A DNA stretch of 45,423 nucleotides from a virus (IMGVR_UViG_2563366980_000004), one strand, 5' to 3'. Positions 8,045 to 41,561 are shown, numbered from the stretch's first letter. The notes: generated by a model from the sequence alone, not told the origin. Numbers and translations: made by a program.

Positions 8045-8737
8045 TTAATTGTGTCGCTTAAGGGTTTGTGACTGGCTGATTAAGACCTTTCCAAAGACCA
8101 TAAACCGGTGTTCATTTTCGCTGGTAATTCCCCATTCACGGTAAATCTGGTTATCAGAAATCACCAGTAGTTTGTCAGGTATCATTTGCAGTCGTTTGAC
8201 ATAAATTTTATCATCAAAACCAAATACATAGATACCATCTCCATCAAACTGATTGATACTGACATCAACGAAGATGAGATCTCCTGGCTCAATGGTTGGA
8301 CACATACTGTCCCCACGAACGTTGATAACTTTAATGTGATTGGCTGGCCGTCCGCCAAACATCGATACAGCATTATCAGTTCTGTATTCAATGGCATGAA
8401 TCACATCAATGACATCACCGCCCTGGATAAGGCCATTTCCCGCACTGGCACTGACATCCAGCATTTCAATACGGAATACATCCTTCACCTGCGCAACATC
8501 CTCACTAATACTGTTTTTACATACAGTATTACTTTTGAAGTCTGAGGTAAAGAGATCAGCAATATCAACACCTAAGCTCCTGGCAATATTACTCAGGGCT
8601 TGTTCAGTGAATTGTTTCTGCTTACCTGTTTCCAGGCGTGAGATATTCGCCGCATCCACTCCTATTGCTTCAGCGAGATCGGCGATTTTCATGTTCTTCG
8701 CCTGGCGAAGTTGTCTGACTCGGTTTCCTATGTTCAT
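8045..8737 (-). CDS. cI: CI-type prophage repressor (HTH_XRE + S24 LexA-like peptidase domain)
   Basis: 230 aa; N-terminal HTH (LRQAKNMKIADLAEAIGVDAANISRLETGK) and C-terminal S24 signature (RGDSMCPTIEPGDLIFVD...YVKRL); divergent from the cro-like gene. Confidence 0.9.
   Translation of the reverse strand: MNIGNRVRQLRQAKNMKIADLAEAIGVDAANISRLETGKQKQFTEQALSNIARSLGVDIADLFTSDFKSNTVCKNSISEDVAQVKDVFRIEMLDVSASAGNGLIQGGDVIDVIHAIEYRTDNAVSMFGGRPANHIKVINVRGDSMCPTIEPGDLIFVDVSINQFDGDGIYVFGFDDKIYVKRLQMIPDKLLVISDNQIYREWGITSENEHRFMVFGKVLISQSQTLKRHN
8509..8528. promoter_or_regulatory. Consensus-like SOS (LexA) box inside the cI coding sequence
   Basis: TACTGTTTTTACATACAGTA matches CTGT-N8-ACAG with TA flanks; in the HTH-peptidase linker region of cI. 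Confidence 0.35.
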
Positions 8738-9095: not shown

Positions 9096-9639
9096 TCATC
9101 ACTGGAAAGTGGAAAAACAGCCTGAGTGGTACGTGAAAGCTGTCAGAAAAACTATCGCGGCGTTGCCGGGGGGTTACGCTGAAGCTGCTGAGTGGCTGGA
9201 TGTAACAGAGAACGCTTTATTCAACCGCCTTCGTGCAGATGGCGATCAGATTTTCCCGCTGGGATGGGCAATGATTTTACAGCGTGCTGCTGGCACTCAC
9301 TACATTGCGGATGCTGTCGCACAGTCTGCTGGTGGGGTGTTTGTATCGCTTCCTGAAATTGAGGAAGTAGAGAACGCAGATATAAACCAGCGCCTGCTGG
9401 AAGTCATCGAACAGATCGGGAGTTACTCAAAGCAGATTCGTTCGGCAATCGAAGATGGGGTAGTGGAGCCACACGAGCAGACAGCAATTAATGATGAATT
9501 GTATCTGTCAATTTCGAAGCTCCAGGAGCATGCGGCACTGGTCTACAAAATTTTCTGCGCTCCAGAAAAGAGTGACGCCCGCGAGTGTGCAGCTCCGGGC
9601 GTCGTGGCGTTTTGTGTCTGTGGAGAAACTAACGCATGA
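9088..9639 (+). CDS. CII-like / YdaT-like early regulatory protein
   Basis: 183 aa; GTG start with AGGAGG RBS; position after cro; weak resemblance to CII/YdaT-family proteins (functional call tentative). Confidence 0.6.
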   Translation: MGNHHWKVEKQPEWYVKAVRKTIAALPGGYAEAAEWLDVTENALFNRLRADGDQIFPLGWAMILQRAAGTHYIADAVAQSAGGVFVSLPEIEEVENADINQRLLEVIEQIGSYSKQIRSAIEDGVVEPHEQTAINDELYLSISKLQEHAALVYKIFCAPEKSDARECAAPGVVAFCVCGETNA

Positions 9640-10787
9640 ACAGTTTAACGGCAAATAACCGTTTGTCGCAACAGCTGGTGGTCAGTGTCGCTGCACACCT
9701 GTTGTTACGGCATGAATGCAGATTACCAAATCACCTGGCTGTAAGTAACCACAGAGAACTTTACCTGACTGTGGGGGGCGAGTTGTGCAGGAACTTAACC
9801 GCTGGTTTCGTGACGGAAGAGGACTTTATGTTCATGTTATTCGTTGGGAGCCAGAAACACAGCGCGTTATCTATCTTCGCAAAGACTACCCGCATGAGTG
9901 CTTTAGTCCTTTGTGGAAATTCAGGCGTGATTTTGTTGAGTGTGAAGGACCACCAGCACATTGATTCTGCCATTCCGGGACGTTACACTGTTCAGGCACC
10001 TTATAAAGCGGGTGCCGGGCGTGGAAACCCGGAATTCACCAAAGCGCACAACCGCGCTCTTGCGGTTTTTTTGTGTCATGAGCAGCATTACGCCCAAATT
10101 ATGGTGGGGCGTGCAGGGCCAACTTCGGTTGGGCCGGGTTCTTTGGTGACCGGTATTTCCACCCCTGTACGTCTCACCACCAATAAGGTCGTGGAAAGCC
10201 TTGGTGGTGAGTTATTAAAAATCACCAAAGAGGCTGCCATCATGGCTACGATCCCAACCCTCACTCAACCTGAAATTGCCATCGTTGATGGTCAGGCTGT
10301 TACTTCATCCCTGGCTGTTGCCAACTTCTTCTCCAAACGTCATGACGATGTACTGAAAAAGATCCGCACGCTTGAATGTTCCGCATCATTCACTGCCCGC
10401 AATTTTTCGGTGAGTGATTACACCGATTGCACAGGCCGCAAACTACCTTGCTATCAAATAACCCGCGACGGCTTTGCGTTTCTTGCTATGGGTTTCACGG
10501 GTAAACGTGCTGCCCAGTTCAAAGAGGCATACATCAATGCCTTTAACCAGATGGAGAAACAGCTTTCAAAGCCCGCTGTACCGAGCGACGTTGCACATAA
10601 CGCCAGCGTTCTCTGTTCCTACATTTCATCAATTCATCAGGTCTGGCTGCAGCAGCTTTATCCTATGTTGGCAAAAGCCGAATCTCCGCTGGCTGTTAGC
10701 TTATATGACTATATTAATGATGCTTCGGCGCTGGCCTGCCTCATAAATTTGTCGCTGAACCCTTCAGAGGTAAGGGGGCGCAAATGA
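9636..10787 (+). CDS. Rha-family phage regulatory protein (Rha domain from ATG 10242; status of the upstream 200 codons uncertain)
   Basis: C-terminal 182 aa (MATIPTLTQPEIAIVDGQAVTSSLAVANFFSKRHDDVLKKIR...) matches the Rha domain, with an AAGAGG RBS before 10242; the same frame is stop-free back to an ATGA overlap with the upstream gene but has odd composition and an internal terminator-like hairpin. Confidence 0.5.
   Translation: MNSLTANNRLSQQLVVSVAAHLLLRHECRLPNHLAVSNHRELYLTVGGELCRNLTAGFVTEEDFMFMLFVGSQKHSALSIFAKTTRMSALVLCGNSGVILLSVKDHQHIDSAIPGRYTVQAPYKAGAGRGNPEFTKAHNRALAVFLCHEQHYAQIMVGRAGPTSVGPGSLVTGISTPVRLTTNKVVESLGGELLKITKEAAIMATIPTLTQPEIAIVDGQAVTSSLAVANFFSKRHDDVLKKIRTLECSASFTARNFSVSDYTDCTGRKLPCYQITRDGFAFLAMGFTGKRAAQFKEAYINAFNQMEKQLSKPAVPSDVAHNASVLCSYISSIHQVWLQQLYPMLAKAESPLAVSLYDYINDASALACLINLSLNPSEVRGRK
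10050..10072 (+). terminator. Intrinsic terminator-like hairpin plus T-run (tR1-like)
   Basis: ACCGC-GCTCTT-GCGGT followed by TTTTTTT. Confidence 0.45.
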
Positions 10788-11008
10788 TCCGGAATATTTT
10801 CAAACGTTTTACCAATCAGACTTTCCGTTGTCCTCGTCCGGGTCAGTGGTACACCACGCCTGCAGGGCATGTTCTACGTGTTAGCCTGGTTGACCGTGAA
10901 TGTCAGAAGGTGATTTGTGAACCGCTGGGCCGTAATTACCGCGTCAGTATGCCGCTTATAGCCTTTCGCTCCGGAAAAAACATGAAGCATCTCGGAGGTG
11001 CAGCATGA
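10784..11008 (+). CDS. Hypothetical small phage protein
   Basis: 74 aa; ATGA start/stop overlaps with both neighbours suggest translational coupling. Confidence 0.5.
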   Translation: MIRNIFKRFTNQTFRCPRPGQWYTTPAGHVLRVSLVDRECQKVICEPLGRNYRVSMPLIAFRSGKNMKHLGGAA

Positions 11009-11823
11009 GTATGGAGCTGATGGTTAAAGCGATGAAAATTCGAGTGGGTAATCCATTGCGAAAACTGGTTCTGATCAAGCTGGCTGATAATGCCAGCGAT
11101 CAGGGTGAGTGCTGGCCCAGCTACCAGCATATTGCTGACCAGTGCGAGATTAGCAAACGTTCTGTGATGAATCATATTGCGGCCCTTTGTGAGTCCGGGC
11201 TGGTAAAAAAAGTCACCCGGAAAGGTGAAAAAGGTAACTCAAGTAATATCTATCTCCTTCATCTTGATGGTGCAGGAGATTCACTAGGGGGTAGTGCAAA
11301 TAATTCACTATCTGGTGCAGCAAATTCACCAGGTAGTGCAGGAGTTGCACCAGGGGGTAGTGCAGGAGATTCACCCAGAACCAGTCACTCTTTTGAACCA
11401 GTCAAAGAACCAGTCAATGAACCAATAGCTGTTGGTGCATCTGCTGATGAGTCTGTGCGAGTTCGTTCAAACCGACCGGAATACTCTCCGGAGTTTGAGC
11501 AGGCATGGCTGGCCTATCCCAAACGTGCTGGTGGCAATTCAAAATCTGCAGCCTTCAAAGCCTGGAAAGCCCGTTTGAATGAGGGGGTAAACCCCGAAAC
11601 CATGCTGGAAGGTGTGAAACGCTACGCGGGCTGGGTATCTGCGATGGGTAACAGCGGCACACAATTTGTGAAACAGGCTGTCACGTTCTTTGGTCCGGAT
11701 CGTCATTTCGAAGAATCCTGGGAAGTTCCTGCAGTATCTGCAGCCAGACGCGAGGACCCGTACTTCAAAGCCAGTTACGACAACGTGGACTACAGCCAGA
11801 TCCCGGCAGGATTCAGGGGGTGA
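11005..11823 (+). CDS. Replication initiation protein (O-like, N-terminal HTH; YfdO-like)
   Basis: 272 aa; N-terminal winged-helix-like region, central Gly/Ser/Ala-rich linker encoded by direct DNA repeats, C-terminal domain (EFEQAWLAYPKRAGGNSKSAAFKAWKARL). Confidence 0.7.
   Translation: MSMELMVKAMKIRVGNPLRKLVLIKLADNASDQGECWPSYQHIADQCEISKRSVMNHIAALCESGLVKKVTRKGEKGNSSNIYLLHLDGAGDSLGGSANNSLSGAANSPGSAGVAPGGSAGDSPRTSHSFEPVKEPVNEPIAVGASADESVRVRSNRPEYSPEFEQAWLAYPKRAGGNSKSAAFKAWKARLNEGVNPETMLEGVKRYAGWVSAMGNSGTQFVKQAVTFFGPDRHFEESWEVPAVSAARREDPYFKASYDNVDYSQIPAGFRG
11269..11388. repeat. Iteron-like direct repeats inside the O-like gene (putative ori)
   Basis: GTGCAGGAG(A/T)T, GGTAGTGCA and ATTCAC motifs each recur 3-4 times within about 120 bp. 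Confidence 0.4.
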
Positions 11824-11825
11824 TT

Positions 11826-12314
11826 ATGAGTCTTTTGAATGAAGTTCAGAAATTCATTGAAGCCCATCCGGGGTGTACTTCTGGAGACATTGCGGATGCT
11901 TTTGCTGGTTACTCACGGCAGCGCGTTCTGCAGTCAGCAAGCAAGTTACGTCAGAGTGGGCGTGTGGCTCACCGTTGTGAAGGAGATACACGCAGACATT
12001 TCCCGCGCCTGACTGAGAGAGCGCAGGAGCCGGAACCACAATCTGTTCGTGAAACCAGACCTGTGCGCAATTTCTATGTCGGCACTAACGACCCCCGGGT
12101 GATTTTGTGCCTGACCCGCCTGGCTGAAGAACTGGAGTCCAGGGGCTTATTCCGTCGAGCTGCAACGGTGTGGATGGAGGCATTCCGTGAAAGCCACTCC
12201 CAGCCAGAACGAAACAATTTTCTGGCGCATCGTGAGCGGTGCTTACGGAAAAGCAGCAAGCGCGCTGCATCGGGTGAAGAGTGGTATCTGTCAGGGAATT
12301 ACGTGGGGGCTTAA
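11826..12314 (+). CDS. PerC-family transcriptional regulator-like protein (YfdN-like)
   Basis: Motif LESRGLFRRAATVWMEAF resembles the PerC/Pch signature; ATG 11826 with GGGGGTG RBS; length matches E. coli YfdN (164 aa). Confidence 0.55.
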   Translation: MSLLNEVQKFIEAHPGCTSGDIADAFAGYSRQRVLQSASKLRQSGRVAHRCEGDTRRHFPRLTERAQEPEPQSVRETRPVRNFYVGTNDPRVILCLTRLAEELESRGLFRRAATVWMEAFRESHSQPERNNFLAHRERCLRKSSKRAASGEEWYLSGNYVGA

Positions 12315-12967
12315 TGAGTAATAAATATTGCCAGGCGCTGGTGGAGCTGCGGAACAAACCAGCCCATGAACTGAAGGAAGTGGGCGATCAGTGGCGCACG
12401 CCGGACAACATTTTCTGGGGAATTAACACCCTGTTTGGCCCGTTTGTTCTGGATCTGTTTACTGATGGTGATAACGCCAAATGTGCCGCTTATTACACTG
12501 CGGAAGACAACGCGCTGGCGCATGACTGGTCAGAACGTCTTGCGGAGCTTAAAGGTGCTGCCTTTGGTAATCCCCCGTACAGCCGCGCGAGTCAGCATGA
12601 GGGGCAATACATCACCGGCATGCGTTACATCATGAAACATGCCAGTGCTATGCGTGATAAAGGCGGGCGCTATGTTTTCCTGATCAAAGCTGCCACCAGC
12701 GAAGTTTGGTGGCCGGAAGATGCAGACCATATTGCTTTTATTCGCGGGCGTATTGGTTTTGAACTGCCAGCCTGGTTTATCCCGAAGGACGAGAAGCAGG
12801 TGCCGACAGGCGCTTTCTTCGCTGGTGCTATTGCTGTTTTCGACAAGACCTGGAAGGGACCGGCAATCAGCTACATCGGGCGCGATGAACTTGAGGCATG
12901 TGGTGAGGCCTTTCTGGCGCAGGTTCGCCAGCAGGCGGAAAAACTGGTCAGGGAGATGGCGGCATGA
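12314..12967 (+). CDS. Phage N6-adenine DNA methyltransferase (Dam-like)
   Basis: NPPY catalytic motif (FGNPPYS); start at MSNKYC with TAATG overlap. Confidence 0.85.
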   Translation: MSNKYCQALVELRNKPAHELKEVGDQWRTPDNIFWGINTLFGPFVLDLFTDGDNAKCAAYYTAEDNALAHDWSERLAELKGAAFGNPPYSRASQHEGQYITGMRYIMKHASAMRDKGGRYVFLIKAATSEVWWPEDADHIAFIRGRIGFELPAWFIPKDEKQVPTGAFFAGAIAVFDKTWKGPAISYIGRDELEACGEAFLAQVRQQAEKLVREMAA

Positions 12968-13695: not shown

Positions 13696-14493
13696 ATGAA
13701 TAATCTGATGGTCATTGATGGTATTGAAGTTCGTCGTGATGCTTATGGTCGTTACAGCCTGAACGATCTTCACAGGGCTGCCGGTTCTCTGGATAAGCAT
13801 AAGCCTGCATTCTGGCTCCGCAATGAGCAAACTGAACATTTAATAAGCGAGTTGCAGATTTGCAACTCGGTCAATATAGAGCCAGTTAACGTTATTCGTG
13901 GCGGAAATAACCAGGGGACGTATGTCTGCAAAGAACTGGTGTATGCCTATGCAATGTGGATAAGCCCGTCATTCCATCTTAAGGTGATCCGTACTTTCGA
14001 TATGGTAACCAGCGTACCGGAAAAATTATCCGGGCAGGCTGCTGACAAGATGCAGGCTGGTGTGATTCTGCTGGACTTTATGCGCCGGGAATTAAATCTG
14101 TCTAACTCTTCAGTGCTTGGTGCCTGTCAGAAACTCCAGGAGGCTGTTGGCTTACCGAATCTGGCACCGCGCTATGCCATTGATGCTCCTGCTGACGCGC
14201 CTGATGGCTCAAGCCGCCCCACGCTGTCACTGAGTGCACTGCTGAAGCAGTATGGTATCCGCCTGACAGCTAATCAGGCATATCACCAGATGGCGAAGCT
14301 GGGGATCGTTGAACAACGTGAACGATACAGCCGTACCGAGATTAATAACATCAAAAAATTCTGGTCGCTGACGGCGAAAGGCTGCATGTTCGGCAAGAAC
14401 ATCACCAGTCCGGCAAATCCGCGCGAGACGCAGCCACACTTCTTCGAATCCCGATTCCCTGAGCTGTTAAAGCTGCTCGATACCGTTCATTGA
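13696..14493 (+). CDS. KilA-N domain protein (antirepressor-like)
   Basis: N-terminal KilA-N-like domain (IDGIEVRRDAYGRYSLNDLHRAAG...KPAFWLRNEQT...AMWISPSFHLKVI). Confidence 0.75.
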   Translation: MNNLMVIDGIEVRRDAYGRYSLNDLHRAAGSLDKHKPAFWLRNEQTEHLISELQICNSVNIEPVNVIRGGNNQGTYVCKELVYAYAMWISPSFHLKVIRTFDMVTSVPEKLSGQAADKMQAGVILLDFMRRELNLSNSSVLGACQKLQEAVGLPNLAPRYAIDAPADAPDGSSRPTLSLSALLKQYGIRLTANQAYHQMAKLGIVEQRERYSRTEINNIKKFWSLTAKGCMFGKNITSPANPRETQPHFFESRFPELLKLLDTVH

Positions 14494-17028: not shown

Positions 17029-18081
17029 ATGAAAAATACTGTAAGAATAAACAGTGTTGATTTAATCAACGCTGATTGCCTGCATTTTATTCAGTCCCTG
17101 CCTGATGATTCCATTGACCTGATTGTTACCGATCCGCCGTACTTCAAGGTGAAACCCAACGGCTGGGACAATCAGTGGAAAGGGGACGAAGATTACCTTA
17201 AGTGGCTGGACCACTGTCTGGCCCAGTTCTGGCGGGTGTTAAAACCTGCCGGAAGCCTTTACCTGTTCTGTGGGCATCGTCTGGCATCTGATATTGAGGT
17301 CATGATGCGTGAACGTTTCAACGTGCTTAACCATATCATCTGGGCGAAGCCGTCCGGACGTTGGAATGGGTGTAATAAAGAAAGTCTGCGCGCATATTTT
17401 CCTGCCACAGAGCGCGTTCTGTTTGCTGAACATTACCAGGGGCCATATCGCGGCAAAAGTGACGGCTATGCGGCAAAAGAAAGGGAACTCAAACAGCACA
17501 TAATGGCACCGCTGATATCGTATTTCAGGGATGCTCGTGCCGAACTGGGTATAACGGCAAAACAAATTGCCGAAGCCACAGGTAAGAAAAATATGGTTTC
17601 CCACTGGTTTGGTGCCAGTCAGTGGCAGTTGCCGAATGAGGCTGACTATCGGAAGTTACAGGCACTGTTTTCCCGTATAGCGGCAGAGAAGTTTCAGGAA
17701 CAACAACTGGAACAACCACACCACCAGCTGGTGGCATCTTATGATTCACTGAATCGCAAATATTCTGAATTGCTGGATGAGTTTAAATCTCTCCGGCGCT
17801 ATTTCTCCGTATCAGTCTCCGTGCCTTATACCGATGTCTGGATGCATAAACCCGTTCAGTTCTACCCGGGTAAACATCCGTGTGAGAAACCGGCGGATAT
17901 GCTCAGGCAAATAATCAATGCCAGTAGTCGACCTGGTGATCTGGTTGCTGATTTTTTTATGGGATCCGGTTCCACAATAAAAGCAGCAATGGCGCTGGGG
18001 CGTCGGGCCTTAGGTGTTGAGCTTGAGTCAGAGCGGTTTAACCAGACAGTGAAAGAGATAAACGAGCTGGTGGGGAAATAA
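17029..18081 (+). CDS. DNA methyltransferase (N6-adenine/N4-cytosine class, DPPY motif)
   Basis: 350 aa; IVTDPPYF catalytic motif near the N-terminus and an AdoMet-binding-like FFMGSGST motif near the C-terminus; no adjacent restriction endonuclease. Confidence 0.85.
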
Positions 18082-39175: not shown

Positions 39176-39185
39176 TGGAGTGGAT

Positions 39186-41561
39186 ATGGCAGCAGTAAAA
39201 ATCTCAGGTGTGCTGAAAGATGGTGCGGGAAAACCAATACAGAACTGCACTATTCAACTGAAGGCAAAGCGTAACAGCACCACGGTACTGGTGAACACGG
39301 TGGCCTCTGAAAATCCGGATGAAGCCGGGCGTTACAGCATGGATGTTGAGTATGGCCAGTACAGCGTCATCCTGCTGGTTGAAGGTTTTCCGCCTTCACA
39401 TGCCGGGACCATTACCGTCTATGAAGGCTCCAGACCAGGTACGCTGAATGATTTTCTCGGTGCCATGACGGAAGATGATGTCATGCCGGAGGCATTGCGT
39501 CGTTTTGAGGAAATGGTGGAAGAAGCGGCACGCAACGCTGAAGCCGCCTCTCAGAGCGCAGCGGCGGCAAAGAAATCCGAAACTGCAGCGGCATCATCGA
39601 AGAACGCGGCGAAAACCTCAGAAACGAATGCAGCTAATAGTGCACAGGCGGCAGCGACCTCACAGACTGCATCAGCAAACTCCGCGACAGCAGCCAAAAA
39701 ATCAGAAACCAACGCGAAAAATAGCGAGACAGCCGCAAAGACGAGCGAAACCAACGCAAAGTCCAGCCAGACGGCAGCGAAGACCAGCGAAACGAATGCT
39801 AAAGCCAGTGAAACTGCGGCAAAAAACAGCCAGGTTGCAGCAGCCCAAAGCGAGAGCGCGGCAGCCGGTTCTGCGACTTCAGCAGCTGGATCAGCAACTG
39901 CTGCGGCTAACAGCCAGAAAGCTGCGAAGACGAGTGAAACTAACGCAAAGTCCAGCCAGACGGCAGCGAAGACCAGCGAAACGAATGCCAAAGCCAGTGA
40001 AACTGCGGCGAAAAGCAGTCAGGATGCAGCGGCCCAAAGCGAGAGTGCCGCAGCCAGTTCTGCAAGTGAGGCGGCGGCTTCTGCTACTGCATCAGCCAAC
40101 AGTCAAAAAGCTGCAAAAACCAGTGAAACCAACGCAAAGGCGAGCGAGACTACGGCGGCCAACTCGGCGAAAGCATCCGCTGCAAGCCAGACCGCTGCAA
40201 AAGCAAGTGAAGACGCAGCCAGAGAGTATGCAAGCCAGGCAGCAGATCCGTATAAATATGTCTTACAGCCGCTGCCTGATGTGTGGATACCGTTTAACGA
40301 TTCACTGGATATGATTACGGGCTTTTCGCCATCATATAAAAAGATTGTTATTGGTGACGACGAAATAACGATGCCTGGCGACAAGATTGTTAAGTTTAAA
40401 CGTGCATCGAAAGCAACCTATATTAACAAATCTGGTGTGCTGACAGAGGCTGCCATTGATGAGCCTCGATTTGAACGTGATGGCCTGCTTATTGAGGGGA
40501 AAAGAACGAACTACATGCTCAATTCGGAAAACCCTGCCAGTTGGGGGCGATCGTCAAATATGGATGTTCCCGAAACCGGGACGGATAGTTTTGGTTTTAC
40601 CTATGGAAAGTTTGTCTGTAACGATTCTCTGATTGGGCAAACCTCAGCCATTAATATGGCATCAATTGCTGCAACAAAGTCAGTTGATGTCTCAGGCGAT
40701 AATAAATACGTGACAACCTCATGTCGTTTTAAAACAGAACTGCAGGTAAGGTTGCGTATCCGATTTGATAAATATGACGGTAGCGCAACAACTTTTCTTG
40801 GTGATGCGTATATTGATACACAAACGCTTGAAATTAATATGACAGGCGGCGCTGCCTCAAGGATTACAGCGAGAGTCAGAAAGGACGAAGCTACCGGATG
40901 GATTTTTGCAGAGGCAACAATTCAGGCAATTGATGGGGAGTTAAAAATAGGTTCTCAGATACAGTATTCTCCTAAGCAGGGCGGGGCAACCGTATCTGGT
41001 GACTATATTTATCTGGCCACCCCACAAGTAGAAAATGGGCCTTGTGTATCATCTTTTATTATATCAGGAACGACGGCGGCGACCCGCGCAAGCGATATAG
41101 TTACAGTTCCCATTAAGAATAATCTTTATAATCTTCCTTTTACGGTTCTTTGTGAGGTACATAAGAACTGGTATAAAACGCCAAATGCAGCGCCGCGTGT
41201 TTTTGACACCGGCGGTCATCAAACCGGAGCGGCTATTATTCTTGGCTTCGGTTCTTCAGCAGATTACGACGGATTTCCTTATTGCGATATTGGAGGAGCT
41301 AACAGACGGGTAAACGAAAACGCATTGCTTGAAAAAATGGTTATGGGGATGCGTGTAAAGTCAGATCAGTCTACGTGCTCAGTAAGTAACGGGCGTATAT
41401 CCAGCGAAACAAAAACCACATGGTCCTGTATTCAGAACACCGCAATTATCCGTATTGGAGGCCAGACTACAGCCGGGTTACGTCATTTATTTGGTCATGT
41501 CAGGAATTTCAGAATATGGCACAAGGCATTGACTGATGCTCAGGTGGGGGAGTCAATCTAA
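39186..41561 (+). CDS. stf: Side tail fibre protein (Stf-like N-terminus, Ala/Ser/Thr-rich repeat shaft, distinct C-terminal domain)
   Basis: N-terminus MAAVKISGVLKDGAGKPIQNCTIQLKAKRNSTTVLVNTVASENPDEAGRYSMDVEYGQYSVIL matches lambda Stf; central KTSETNAKxSxTAAK repeats. Confidence 0.85.
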   Translation: MAAVKISGVLKDGAGKPIQNCTIQLKAKRNSTTVLVNTVASENPDEAGRYSMDVEYGQYSVILLVEGFPPSHAGTITVYEGSRPGTLNDFLGAMTEDDVMPEALRRFEEMVEEAARNAEAASQSAAAAKKSETAAASSKNAAKTSETNAANSAQAAATSQTASANSATAAKKSETNAKNSETAAKTSETNAKSSQTAAKTSETNAKASETAAKNSQVAAAQSESAAAGSATSAAGSATAAANSQKAAKTSETNAKSSQTAAKTSETNAKASETAAKSSQDAAAQSESAAASSASEAAASATASANSQKAAKTSETNAKASETTAANSAKASAASQTAAKASEDAAREYASQAADPYKYVLQPLPDVWIPFNDSLDMITGFSPSYKKIVIGDDEITMPGDKIVKFKRASKATYINKSGVLTEAAIDEPRFERDGLLIEGKRTNYMLNSENPASWGRSSNMDVPETGTDSFGFTYGKFVCNDSLIGQTSAINMASIAATKSVDVSGDNKYVTTSCRFKTELQVRLRIRFDKYDGSATTFLGDAYIDTQTLEINMTGGAASRITARVRKDEATGWIFAEATIQAIDGELKIGSQIQYSPKQGGATVSGDYIYLATPQVENGPCVSSFIISGTTAATRASDIVTVPIKNNLYNLPFTVLCEVHKNWYKTPNAAPRVFDTGGHQTGAAIILGFGSSADYDGFPYCDIGGANRRVNENALLEKMVMGMRVKSDQSTCSVSNGRISSETKTTWSCIQNTAIIRIGGQTTAGLRHLFGHVRNFRIWHKALTDAQVGESI
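39745..40010. repeat. Intragenic direct repeats in stf (a near-identical ~68-bp unit occurring twice about 190 bp apart, plus degenerate copies)
   Basis: ACGCAAAGTCCAGCCAGACGGCAGCGAAGACCAGCGAAACGAATGC(T/C)AAAGCCAGTGAAACTGCGGC occurs at about 39753 and 39942. Confidence 0.5.

What the first reader, a model, noticed from the sequence alone, without database searches (positions are those of the whole stretch)
11269..11388. Iteron-like repeats inside the O-like replication gene (probable origin)
Within the linker-encoding part of the replication initiator gene, short motifs (GTGCAGGAG, GGTAGTGCA, ATTCAC) recur 3-4 times in direct orientation, mirroring lambda, where the ori iterons lie inside O. 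This locates the probable origin. No DnaB-loader (P-like) or DnaC-like gene follows, so helicase recruitment may differ.
Basis: partly seen in the sequence, partly recalled or inferred. Interest (0 to 1): 0.4.

Follow-up and report, generated by a model that had tools for sequence, protein, structure and literature searches.

The report
Phage replication origin inside initiator gene
The repeats are real: five evenly spaced, near-palindromic 15-bp sites plus a frozen neighbouring DNA block sit inside the phage's replication-initiator gene, and comparison with about 250 related phages shows they are kept as DNA signals, so this is very probably the origin, laid out as in phage lambda but untested by experiment.

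Summary
Observation confirmed and sharpened. Window 11270-11374 holds five copies of a 15-bp imperfect palindrome, GTGCA-N5-TKCAC, spaced 24/21/21/24 bp. These are the only such sites in 45 kb. They lie in the part of gene 11005-11823 that encodes a disordered linker between an N-terminal winged-helix domain (Pfam HTH_36) and a small helical C-terminal domain.

In about 160 related prophages, phages and phage-plasmids from Gammaproteobacteria the same layout recurs: 3-7 repeats at 21-24 bp, then the block. The repeat sequence changes along with the protein's recognition helix. The same DNA motif is translated in different reading frames and appears in both orientations. Synonymous sites of the block are frozen (96% identical codons versus 41% in the N-domain). 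Copy number ranges from 1 to 9 among near-identical E. coli genes.

This is DNA-level selection of the lambda-ori kind, in a family ("Eru6"/SfV/ST64B type) for which I found no mapped origin. No helicase, loader or primase gene is present. The same C-domain sits next to DnaC-like loaders in other phages, so use of host DnaB-DnaC is inferred. This is a new member of a known kind. No binding or replication was tested.

The parts
11005..11823 (+). Replication initiator gene (272 aa): winged-helix N-domain, disordered linker, helical C-domain
   Evidence: Pfam HTH_36 at residues 17-67, E=1.8e-11, 44.1 bits against a cutoff of 25. PHROG 270 'replication initiation protein', E=1e-88, with separate PHROG families for residues 1-140 and 147-272. 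AlphaFold2 model. 98% nt identity to SfV orf39, mEp460 and Stx2a_WGPS2 'replication protein'.
11005..11268 (+). Coding region of the N-terminal winged-helix DNA-binding domain (residues 1-88), the inferred iteron reader
   Evidence: pLDDT 82-94 with H-H-H-H-E-E topology. Foldseek hits are ArsR/MarR/PerR-type winged helices, E about 1e-2. Recognition-helix variants change together with the iteron core across relatives.
11220..11269 (.). Least stable duplex stretch next to the array (A+T-rich 5' flank)
   Evidence: Nearest-neighbour dG over 30 bp is -34 to -35 kcal/mol, against a window mean of -42.6 (sd 3.8). It is among the 15 least stable positions in 10500-12500. Its role is not established.
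11270..11284 (+). Iteron 1, GTGCAGGAGATTCAC
11294..11308 (+). Iteron 2, GTGCAAATAATTCAC
11315..11329 (+). Iteron 3, GTGCAGCAAATTCAC
11336..11350 (.). Iteron 4, GTGCAGGAGTTGCAC (matches the pattern on both strands; the most palindromic copy)
11360..11374 (+). Iteron 5, GTGCAGGAGATTCAC (identical to iteron 1)
11374..11424 (+). Conserved block: C AGAACCAGTCAC TCTTTT GAACCAGTCAAA GAACCAGTCAAT GAACCA. It holds three full GAACCAGTCA units (11378, 11395, 11407) and a partial fourth. It is a candidate unwinding, helicase-entry or host-factor element.
   Evidence: Exact 10-mer found only here in the window. 96% identical codons at identical residues against 41% in the N-domain across 7 diverged phages. 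The same DNA is read as RTSH, EPVK, PEPVT or NQSI in different relatives. Most A+T-rich 40 bp of the aligned region in 75 loci, 0.60 against about 0.49. One copy per contig in more than 120 viral contigs.
11476..11739 (+). Coding region of the helical C-terminal domain (residues 158-245), the inferred contact for helicase or loader

Best explanation
Window 11270-11424 is the cis-acting core of the phage's replication origin, embedded in the initiator gene as in lambda. Dimers of the initiator's N-terminal winged-helix domain bind the five 15-bp near-palindromic iterons, which are spaced about two helical turns apart, and form a nucleoprotein array comparable to lambda's O-some. The adjoining conserved block of GAACCAGTCA repeats, and possibly the low-stability 5' flank, is where the duplex opens or where a conserved partner acts. 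The C-terminal domain then brings in the replicative helicase. Because the phage has no helicase, loader or primase gene of its own, that helicase is most probably host DnaB delivered by host DnaC. The peptide encoded across the origin is a disordered linker whose sequence is largely a by-product of the DNA signal.

Shown here: the anatomy; DNA-level conservation; co-variation of repeat and recognition helix; the domain architecture; the absence of helicase, loader or primase genes.

Inferred: binding of the initiator to the repeats; DNA unwinding; helicase recruitment; the claim that replication actually starts here.
For: (1) Five exact-pattern sites occur only here in 45 kb; 0 of 100 shuffles reach the count.
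(2) The repetition far exceeds what the protein forces (0 of 5000 synonymous resamplings).
(3) Every relative inspected has its own array at the same place. 65 of 66 loci found through the N-domain have at least 3 copies (mode 5), against 1-2 in control coding DNA. 235 of 246 spacings are 21-24 bp, and the offsets are fixed at 16, 37-40, 60, 82 and 106 nt, with the block 19 nt after the last iteron start.
(4) An independent sample anchored on the block gives the same result: 95 of 96 viral contigs have at least 3 copies in the 130 nt upstream, and 88 of 96 have the N-domain motif upstream.
(5) 37 of 65 arrays contain a spacing that is not a multiple of 3, so one DNA motif is translated in two frames (GSAGDSP and VVQEIHQ in L014). 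Copies also occur inverted: GTGAATCTCCTGCAC in L016, L019 and L084.
(6) The identical iteron GTGCAGGAGATTCAC persists in Aeromonas, Pseudomonas and Rahnella relatives whose third-codon positions are only 31-53% identical to the window. This excludes a recent duplication.
(7) Different recognition-helix sequences go with different iteron cores.
(8) The N- and C-domains recombine independently, with the junction just 3' of the block.
(9) Near-identical E. coli genes differ only by iteron number, 1 to 9, as lambda and Stx phage O genes differ by 4 versus 6 iterons (PMC7466680).
(10) Arsenophonus circular phage-plasmids of 28-48 kb with parM carry a homologous initiator, five iterons, a block variant and a lambda-P-like gene.
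(11) The gene lies in the rightward early operon, downstream of cro and a cII-like gene.
(12) No helicase, loader or primase domain was found in the window. The same C-domain is followed by DnaC-like genes in phiP27, 75/02 and BcepIL02.
Confidence: 0.75

Rival explanations
1. The repeats are initiator-binding sites with a role other than initiation, such as autoregulation, copy-number control by handcuffing, or a roadblock to rightward transcription. The origin would lie elsewhere in the genome.
For: Dyad-symmetric winged-helix sites are also typical operators. No strongly A+T-rich tract adjoins them. Nothing here measures replication.
Against: No other repeat cluster or further copy of the motif exists in the window. 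The sites lie inside the gene, about 260 nt from its start, not at a promoter, and no promoter-like site occurs in 10700-12000. The fixed coupling to a second conserved cis element and to the domain junction matches known origins embedded in initiator genes. Arsenophonus episomes carry the module beside partition genes, and PLSDB lists no replicon type for the two records examined.
Confidence: 0.1
2. The conserved block (11374-11424) is kept mainly as a shared homology patch that lets phages swap N-domain-plus-iteron cassettes with different C-domains (a module-boundary sequence), rather than as a working part of the origin.
For: The N/C recombination junction maps immediately 3' of the block. 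The block is identical across partners that carry different C-domains. A 37-nt hit to the block alone links otherwise unrelated E. coli genes (H102).
Against: Recombination uses homology but does not maintain it between Vibrio, Pseudomonas and E. coli phages whose flanks are saturated with substitutions. The internal direct-repeat structure (2-4 units at 12 and 17 nt) and its fixed distance from the last iteron point to a bound element. The two roles are not exclusive.
Confidence: 0.1
3. The repeats are only a slippage-prone low-complexity linker (Gly/Ser/Ala/Pro codons) with no function at the DNA level.
For: The region encodes a disordered Gly/Ser/Ala-rich peptide. Copy number is polymorphic among close relatives.
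Against: The same DNA motif is read in two or three frames and in both orientations. The encoded peptides are unrelated between relatives (GAGDSL, PSDRMSP, PMPSDGT, VVQSH) while the geometry is constant. The units have dyad symmetry. Synonymous sites are frozen.
Confidence: 0.03
4. The conserved sequence acts in the mRNA, as a structure or a regulatory or frameshift site, not in DNA.
For: Frozen synonymous sites are equally compatible with an RNA element. Truncated frame-shifted variants exist (L031, L062).
Against: No Rfam family matches; the best hit is a chance-level miRNA at E=0.1. The single-strand fold is not better than shuffles (z=-1.25). The elements are direct repeats and duplex palindromes with helical-turn spacing. 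Inverted copies work equally well in relatives, which fits duplex DNA rather than RNA.
Confidence: 0.02

Closest known systems
Bacteriophage lambda ori-lambda inside gene O, and the 6-iteron origins of Stx phages 933W and P27
   Same: The origin lies in the middle of the initiator gene, in the segment encoding the interdomain linker. It has several roughly 18-bp repeats with internal dyad symmetry, spaced about two helical turns apart and bound by dimers of the N-terminal domain. Iteron number differs between relatives and adds or removes amino acids in the protein. A second, initiator-independent element follows the last iteron. The C-domain recruits the helicase complex. The gene sits in the rightward early operon. 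(Own knowledge of lambda; PMC7466680 for layout, 4 versus 6 iterons, O dimers and ssDNA binding of the AT-rich region.)
   Different: The protein is not a Phage_rep_O homologue (Pfam gives HTH_36). There are five iterons of a different sequence. The flanking element is a sequence-conserved set of GAACCAGTCA repeats at only about 60% A+T, rather than a roughly 40-bp AT-rich tract. There is no P gene; the window has no loader, helicase or primase at all.
'Eru6' replication region of Shiga-toxin phages (Fagerlund et al. 2022, PMC8951638; representative Stx2a_WGPS2, AP012537.1); also SfV orf39, ST64B sb42, mEp460
   Same: The same module: 98.3% nt identity over 10700-12400 to AP012537.1. A Rha/Ash protein is followed by an HTH_36 protein downstream of cI and cro.
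   Different: Those papers type the region by its two genes and state that nothing is known about the replication proteins of Eru phages. No origin, iterons or conserved block are described there.
Replisome-organizer / DnaD-like initiators of Gram-positive phages with origins inside their own genes (SPP1 G38P oriL; lactococcal TP901-1 and Tuc2009 replication proteins) - recalled from own knowledge
   Different: All similarity scores are below family thresholds. The hosts are Gammaproteobacteria, which have no DnaD/DnaB(Bsu)/DnaI pathway. Neither the repeat sequence nor the block is shared.
Iteron-type plasmid origins (F, P1, R6K, RK2, pPS10)
   Same: Arrays of roughly 20-bp initiator-specific direct repeats at helical-turn spacing, next to repeated short motifs in the opening region. 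Rep binding to one strand of that region is documented for RK2 and F (own knowledge). Relatives of this module occur on circular episomes with partition genes.
   Different: Here the iterons are inside the rep gene. No DnaA box lies within 2 kb, and there is no IHF site or GATC cluster. The initiator has one winged helix plus an unrelated C-domain, not the two-winged-helix RepA/RepE fold.

Membership tests
Lambda-type origin embedded in the initiator gene (layout class) | At least three direct repeats of about 15-20 bp with internal dyad symmetry at about two-helical-turn spacing | tested here: met
   Five GTGCA-N5-TKCAC sites spaced 24/21/21/24 bp. In the family, 235 of 246 spacings are 21-24 bp.
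Lambda-type origin embedded in the initiator gene (layout class) | Repeats lie in the DNA that encodes the linker between the DNA-binding domain and the recruitment domain of the initiator | tested here: met
   Residues 91-157 have pLDDT about 30, between confident domains 1-88 and 158-244. The iterons encode residues 89-124.
Lambda-type origin embedded in the initiator gene (layout class) | Repeat sequence is specific to the cognate initiator and changes with its DNA-binding domain | tested here: met
   At least 8 iteron types, each associated with a distinct recognition-helix sequence. The sequences are related, so this is correlative.
Lambda-type origin embedded in the initiator gene (layout class) | Adjacent A+T-rich unwinding region | tested here: inconclusive
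   The block is the most A+T-rich 40 bp of the aligned region (0.60 against 0.49) but only about 1 sd less stable than average. The least stable stretch is the 5' flank, 11220-11269.
Lambda-type origin embedded in the initiator gene (layout class) | Initiator binds the repeats and replication starts there | not testable with these tools
   Needs EMSA or footprinting, origin cloning, or marker-frequency analysis.
Lambda O protein family (Pfam Phage_rep_O) with a P-type loader | Sequence homology of the initiator to lambda O | tested here: not met
   Pfam at E<=0.01 returns HTH_36, DnaD_N, B-block_TFIIIC and HTH_20, not Phage_rep_O.
Lambda O protein family (Pfam Phage_rep_O) with a P-type loader | Adjacent P (helicase-loader) gene | tested here: not met
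   The next genes are PerC-like, Dam, a LexA DNA-binding domain protein and RusA. There is no loader, helicase or primase anywhere in the early regions. A P-like gene does follow a homologous initiator in Arsenophonus episomes.
HTH_36 (PF13730) winged-helix proteins | Pfam score above the gathering threshold | tested here: met
   44.1 bits against a cutoff of 25, residues 17-67. Winged-helix fold in the AlphaFold2 model and in Foldseek hits.
DnaD-like replisome organizers | DnaD_N or DnaD C-terminal domain at family threshold, or a significant fold match | tested here: inconclusive
[quoted passage not shown]
   98.3% identity over 1701 nt with 100% coverage. Pfam hits Phage_pRha plus Phage_ASH, then HTH_36. 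Definition in PMC8951638.
Plasmid iteron origins with DnaA boxes | DnaA box(es) and iterons outside the rep gene | tested here: not met
   The nearest TTWTNCACA match is at 13955, and the count is at chance level. The iterons are intragenic.

The most novel reading that the evidence does not exclude
The 50-bp block of GAACCAGTCA repeats is a previously undescribed, sequence-specific origin module shared by a very large family of gammaproteobacterial prophages and phage-plasmids. It is independent of which iterons and which helicase-recruiting C-domain flank it. It would be recognised either as single-stranded DNA by the conserved part of the initiator or by a conserved host factor. It is selected so strongly at the DNA level that the overlapping reading frame merely tolerates it, being read in at least three frames in different relatives. 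This would make it a portable opening or helicase-entry cassette, and would make the linker peptide a passenger of the origin.
Probability: 0.45. Interest if true: 0.55.

Novelty: new member of a known kind. Interest (0 to 1): 0.45.

Why it matters
About one in six complete E. coli genomes (897 of 5426) carries this initiator gene, as do several Shiga-toxin phage types (Eru6, with relatives of the N-domain in Min27/F451-type phages). Toxin output of those phages depends on phage DNA replication, yet the literature that types these regions says their replication is uncharacterised. The analysis gives exact, testable coordinates for the origin, a predicted protein-DNA recognition code (recognition helix versus iteron core), and natural mutants with one iteron or no block. 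It is also a clear example of a cis-acting DNA signal dictating the sequence of a disordered protein linker, with the same signal translated in several frames. Conceptually it extends the lambda paradigm rather than overturning it.

Tried and rejected
- Rfam scan of 10500-12500: only a chance-level miRNA hit, E=0.1.
- Single-strand DNA fold of 11255-11440: not better than shuffles, z=-1.25.
- Sigma-70 promoter scan of 10700-12000: none. One terminator-like hairpin on the minus strand at 11228-11213, a count at chance level.
- DnaA boxes: none near; 4 in the window, which is chance level.
- IHF consensus: none. No GATC between 11099 and 11697.
- PDB sequence search with the full protein: nothing meaningful.
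- Pfam on the C-domain alone: nothing.
- Foldseek on the full model reported only the winged helix.
- I first suspected the region was the published 'Eru2' type, whose Eru2A protein is 273 aa. I rejected this because Eru2A carries Phage_rep_O and is followed by a DnaB-like gene. The region is Eru6.
- Literature searches for a mapped origin, for the exact motifs and for 'initiator-solo' modules found nothing relevant.
- The Weigel & Seitz 2006 review, which may already classify SfV/ST64B-type modules, is not held. That gap limits the novelty claim.
- Clustering of C-domains by single linkage was too coarse to relate C-domain type to downstream helicase genes, so I relied on annotated phage records instead.

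Full report
**What is in the window**

The finding lies in gene 11005-11823 (+), 272 aa. The gene follows a cI-like repressor (8045-8737, minus strand), a cro-like gene, a cII-like CP76 gene, a Rha/Ash gene and a 74-aa ORF. After it come PerC-like, Dam, LexA-DNA-binding-domain, RusA, KilA-N, DUF968 and Q genes.

The protein hits Pfam HTH_36 (residues 17-67, 44.1 bits against a cutoff of 25) and, below threshold, DnaD_N. PHROGs call it a replication initiation protein (phrog_270, E=1e-88). Separate PHROG families match residues 1-140 and 147-272.

The region is 98% identical to Stx2a_WGPS2, mEp460, SfV (orf39) and many Stx2c phages, and 88% identical at the protein level to ST64B sb42. In the typing scheme of Fagerlund et al. 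this is the 'Eru6' replication region. That paper and its predecessor state that nothing is known about the replication proteins of Eru phages, and neither mentions an origin (PMC8044961, PMC8951638).

**Checking the observation**

They are pieces of one unit, a 15-bp imperfect palindrome GTGCA-N5-TKCAC. It occurs five times, at 11270, 11294, 11315, 11336 and 11360, with spacings of 24, 21, 21 and 24 bp, and nowhere else in the 45-kb window. Shuffles give a mean of 0.38 matches and none of 100 reaches the observed count. Tandem Repeats Finder reports the array with periods 21 and 24.

The peptide is itself repetitive (GAGDSL GGSANNSL SGAANSP GSAGVAP GGSAGDSP), so I asked whether the protein forces the DNA repeat. 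Resampling synonymous codons for residues 89-141 with the window's own codon usage never approached the observed k-mer repetition (0 of 5000 for k=6 to 10). All seven Ala codons in the segment are GCA, against a mixed usage elsewhere in the gene.

GAACCAGTCA occurs at 11378, 11395 and 11407, and these are the only exact copies in the window. The first copy is in a different reading frame from the other two: AGA ACC AGT CAC encodes RTSH, while GAA CCA GTC AAA encodes EPVK.

**Relatives: first set**

A tblastn search showed that the N-terminal part (1 to about 140) and the C-terminal part (about 142-272) recombine independently among phages. I fetched eleven phage loci that share the N-domain at 48-88% identity: ST64B, Aeromonas AsXd-1, Vibrio D67 and D68, Stx2a_F451, Min27, SF10, Klebsiella ST13-OXA48phi12.5, Pectobacterium ZF40, mEp013 and Stx2_EH2085.

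Each has its own array of 3-7 repeats at 21/24-nt period at the same place, right after the winged helix. Each unit is a 15-nt near-palindrome:
- GGGCAGGAGCTGCCC, three copies, in F451 and Min27
- GGGCAGGAGCTGACC, seven copies, in EH2085
- GTGAY-N5-GTCAC in Vibrio D67
- TGCCA-N5-TGGCA in the Klebsiella phage
- GTGCC-N8-GCAC in ZF40
- GTGTCACAGAGTCAC in mEp013

The encoded peptides are unrelated between these phages.

Immediately after every array comes the same DNA, CC AGA ACC AGT CAC TCT TTT GAA CCA GTC AAT GAA CC. At residues that are identical between pairs of seven diverged phages, the codon is also identical in 195 of 203 cases in this block, against 389 of 959 in the N-domain. The pairs are not independent, so the nominal P value overstates significance, but the contrast is large.

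**Relatives: two larger samples**

A scan of one genome per bacterial species with an N-domain profile found 260 relatives. The 80 loci kept come from Pseudomonas, Aeromonas, Shewanella, Xenorhabdus, Marinomonas, Providencia, Erwinia, Rahnella and others.

In 65 of 66 analysable loci there are at least 3 repeats (mode 5), against 1-2 in control coding DNA of the same length. Of 246 spacings, 235 are 21-24 bp. The offsets from the end of the winged helix are nearly constant (16, 37-40, 60, 82, 106 nt), and the block starts 19 nt after the last iteron begins.

In 37 of 65 arrays at least one spacing is not a multiple of three, so the same DNA motif is translated in two frames within one protein. 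In Pseudomonas sp. GW6 (L014), TAGTGCAGGAGATTCACCAG is read once as GSAGD(S/A)P and once as VVQEIHQ. Copies also occur in inverted orientation: GTGAATCTCCTGCAC in L016, L019 and L084 is the reverse complement of the window's iteron and is read as GESPAP.

The block shows the same property. Its first unit is read as RTSH in most relatives but as PEPVT in two Shewanella loci. Its later units are read as NQSI in Avibacterium, while the DNA is retained.

The exact window iteron, GTGCAGGAGATTCAC, is present in 4-7 copies in Aeromonas, Pseudomonas and Rahnella relatives whose third-codon positions in the N-domain are only 31-53% identical to the window. The repeats are therefore not a recent duplication.

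Sorting loci by the putative recognition helix shows that distinct helix sequences go with distinct iteron cores:
- SKRSVMNHI or SRRSV.xHI goes with GTG[CA]A-N5-T[TG]CAC
- SKRSVMRHI goes with GTGACACAGAGTCAC
- SKSAV[KR].HI goes with TGCC...GGCA types
- DRSTVRKHI goes with GTAGGCC...GCAC
- SRSTVKSHI goes with GGGCAGGAGCTGCC

This is correlative and confounded by phylogeny.

The second sample is anchored on the block rather than on the protein, using the IMG/VR viral contigs. It gave more than 120 contigs, with one block per contig. 95 of 96 distinct loci have at least 3 repeats in the 130 nt upstream, against 1-2 (three loci with 3) in a control segment. 88 of 96 have the N-domain motif upstream.

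**Polymorphism**

Among E. coli proteins that are otherwise near-identical, the linker carries 1, 2, 5, 6-7, 8 or 9 iteron-encoding units. The number of block units also varies. One variant (P0039) lacks the block altogether. This parallels the 4 versus 6 iterons of lambda and Stx phage O genes, where the extra iterons likewise add residues to O (PMC7466680). The gene is present at 80% coverage or more in 897 of 5426 complete E. coli genomes. The K-12 CPS-53 yfdO/yfdN locus is a remnant of it.

**Protein architecture**

AlphaFold2 with a 21-sequence alignment gives three parts: a confident winged helix (residues 1-88, pLDDT 82-94), a disordered linker (91-157, pLDDT about 30) and a confident helical C-domain (158-244, about 88). 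The iterons and block encode residues 89-140, inside the disordered segment.

**Helicase recruitment**

No helicase, loader or primase domain was found in the window's early regions. The window-type C-domain is fused to at least four unrelated N-terminal domains in phiP27, Stx2_14040/BcepIL02, Tritos and 75/02. In those phages it is followed by a DnaC-like loader with or without a DnaB-like helicase (phiP27, 75/02, BcepIL02; in Stx2_14040 by genes annotated 'DNA helicase' and 'replication protein'), or by nothing (Tritos). Those proteins lack the block, so the block travels with the N-domain family and not with the C-domain.

Conversely, relatives of the N-domain are paired with several different partners: primase-helicases (F451, Min27), a helicase (ZF40), a 'replication protein' (Klebsiella phage), DnaC-like genes, or a lambda-P-like gene. 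The inference is that the C-domain contacts a DnaC-type loader-helicase complex, and that this phage, having none, uses the host's DnaB-DnaC. This step is inferred, not shown.

**Episomes**

In PLSDB a homologous initiator sits on many non-mobilizable circular records of 28-48 kb. At least ten of these are Arsenophonus nasoniae 'plasmids'. In one examined record it lies next to parM and a plasmid partitioning/stability gene and is followed by a gene annotated replication protein P. Its linker DNA carries five GGTGACAA-N4-GACA repeats and a block variant. This fits the idea that the module is the replicon of autonomously maintained elements, but it does not prove it.

**What the block might be**

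Averaged over 75 loci, the block is the most A+T-rich 40 bp around the array (0.60 against about 0.49, with the iterons at 0.42-0.45). In this window it is only about 1 sd less stable than average. The least stable stretch is the 5' flank, 11220-11269. There is no DnaA box, IHF consensus, GATC, promoter or Rfam match in or next to it.

Its direct-repeat structure and sequence conservation, rather than mere base composition, suggest a bound element. The possibilities are a sequence-specific opening region recognised as single strand by the initiator, a host-factor site, or an anchor resembling an iteron half-site. Lambda O binds the single-stranded AT-rich region of its origin (PMC7466680); from my own knowledge, plasmid Rep proteins do the same at their opening regions. 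I could not resolve this.

A non-exclusive alternative is that the block also serves as the homology patch at which N-domain-plus-iteron cassettes are exchanged between different C-domains.

**Comparison and verdict**

In layout and inferred mechanism this is a lambda-type origin embedded in its initiator gene. In membership it is not a lambda O/P system: there is no Phage_rep_O homology and no P gene. It belongs to the HTH_36 'solo initiator' module typed as Eru6.

I found no paper that maps or describes this origin, its iterons or the block.

I rate it a new member of a known kind, and of moderate interest: the general idea is expected, while the family-wide anatomy, the multi-frame reading and the conserved block are useful, directly testable additions.

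Noticed in passing
window 11294-11428 (+), alternative frame: A 44-aa ORF (MQIIHYLVQQIHQVVQELHQGVVQEIHPEPVTLLNQ...) is simply the +1 reading of the iterons and block. The same peptide strings (GVVQEIHQ, HPEPVT) are genuinely in frame in Pseudomonas, Xenorhabdus and Shewanella relatives.
   Followed up: yes
L031 (Pseudomonas bharatica) and L062 (Erwinia tracheiphila), initiator genes: The initiators are truncated to 133 and 118 aa. An iteron spacing shifts the frame, so the block is read '...HPEPVTLLNQ' and the ORF stops shortly after. They are either pseudogenes or N-domain-only proteins. This shows a cost of hosting an origin inside an ORF.
   Followed up: partly
proteins P0039 and P0042 (E. 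coli relatives): P0039 (247 aa, on 3 contigs) has a deletion removing the last iteron and the whole conserved block. P0042 has a single iteron. These are natural mutants that could show whether the elements are needed.
   Followed up: no
L098 (Arsenophonus nasoniae plasmid paNv_UK9) 80-3972, and at least 9 similar records: Circular 28-48 kb 'plasmids' carry parM and a partitioning/stability gene, then a homologous winged-helix initiator with five iterons and a block variant, then a lambda-P-like gene. They look like phage-plasmids using this origin type.
   Followed up: partly
window 11213-11228 (minus strand): A terminator-like hairpin (TCACCTTTCCGGGTGA followed by CTTTTTTTAC) lies just 5' of the iterons, within the low-stability flank. 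The count is at chance level for the region scanned.
   Followed up: no
window 39705-40150: A large tandem repeat with a 189-nt period, 2.3 copies and 21/42-nt sub-periods (TRF score 597) lies inside the 793-aa ORF 39180-41561, in the tail-fibre region.
   Followed up: no
window 9636-10787 (+): The Rha/Ash ORF is listed as 383 aa, but its Pfam domains begin only at residue 117 (Ash 117-213, Rha 223-308). The real start codon is probably further downstream.
   Followed up: no
window 12281-12967 and 17029-18081: The phage encodes two DNA methyltransferases (Dam family and N6_N4_Mtase), yet there is no GATC between 11099 and 11697, so the origin region is free of Dam sites.
   Followed up: partly
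E. coli K-12-type genomes (H98): Only the last 76 nt of the gene plus yfdN match. The CPS-53 (KpLE1) yfdO/yfdN locus is a decayed remnant of this replication module.
   Followed up: no
L092 phiP27 gene L17, linker: An initiator with an unrelated HTH N-domain but the same C-domain also has a repetitive linker (DPSDSEPSKSEPSESE ... HDPQVNSKHDPQD). Its DNA may hold that phage's own iterons.
   Followed up: no
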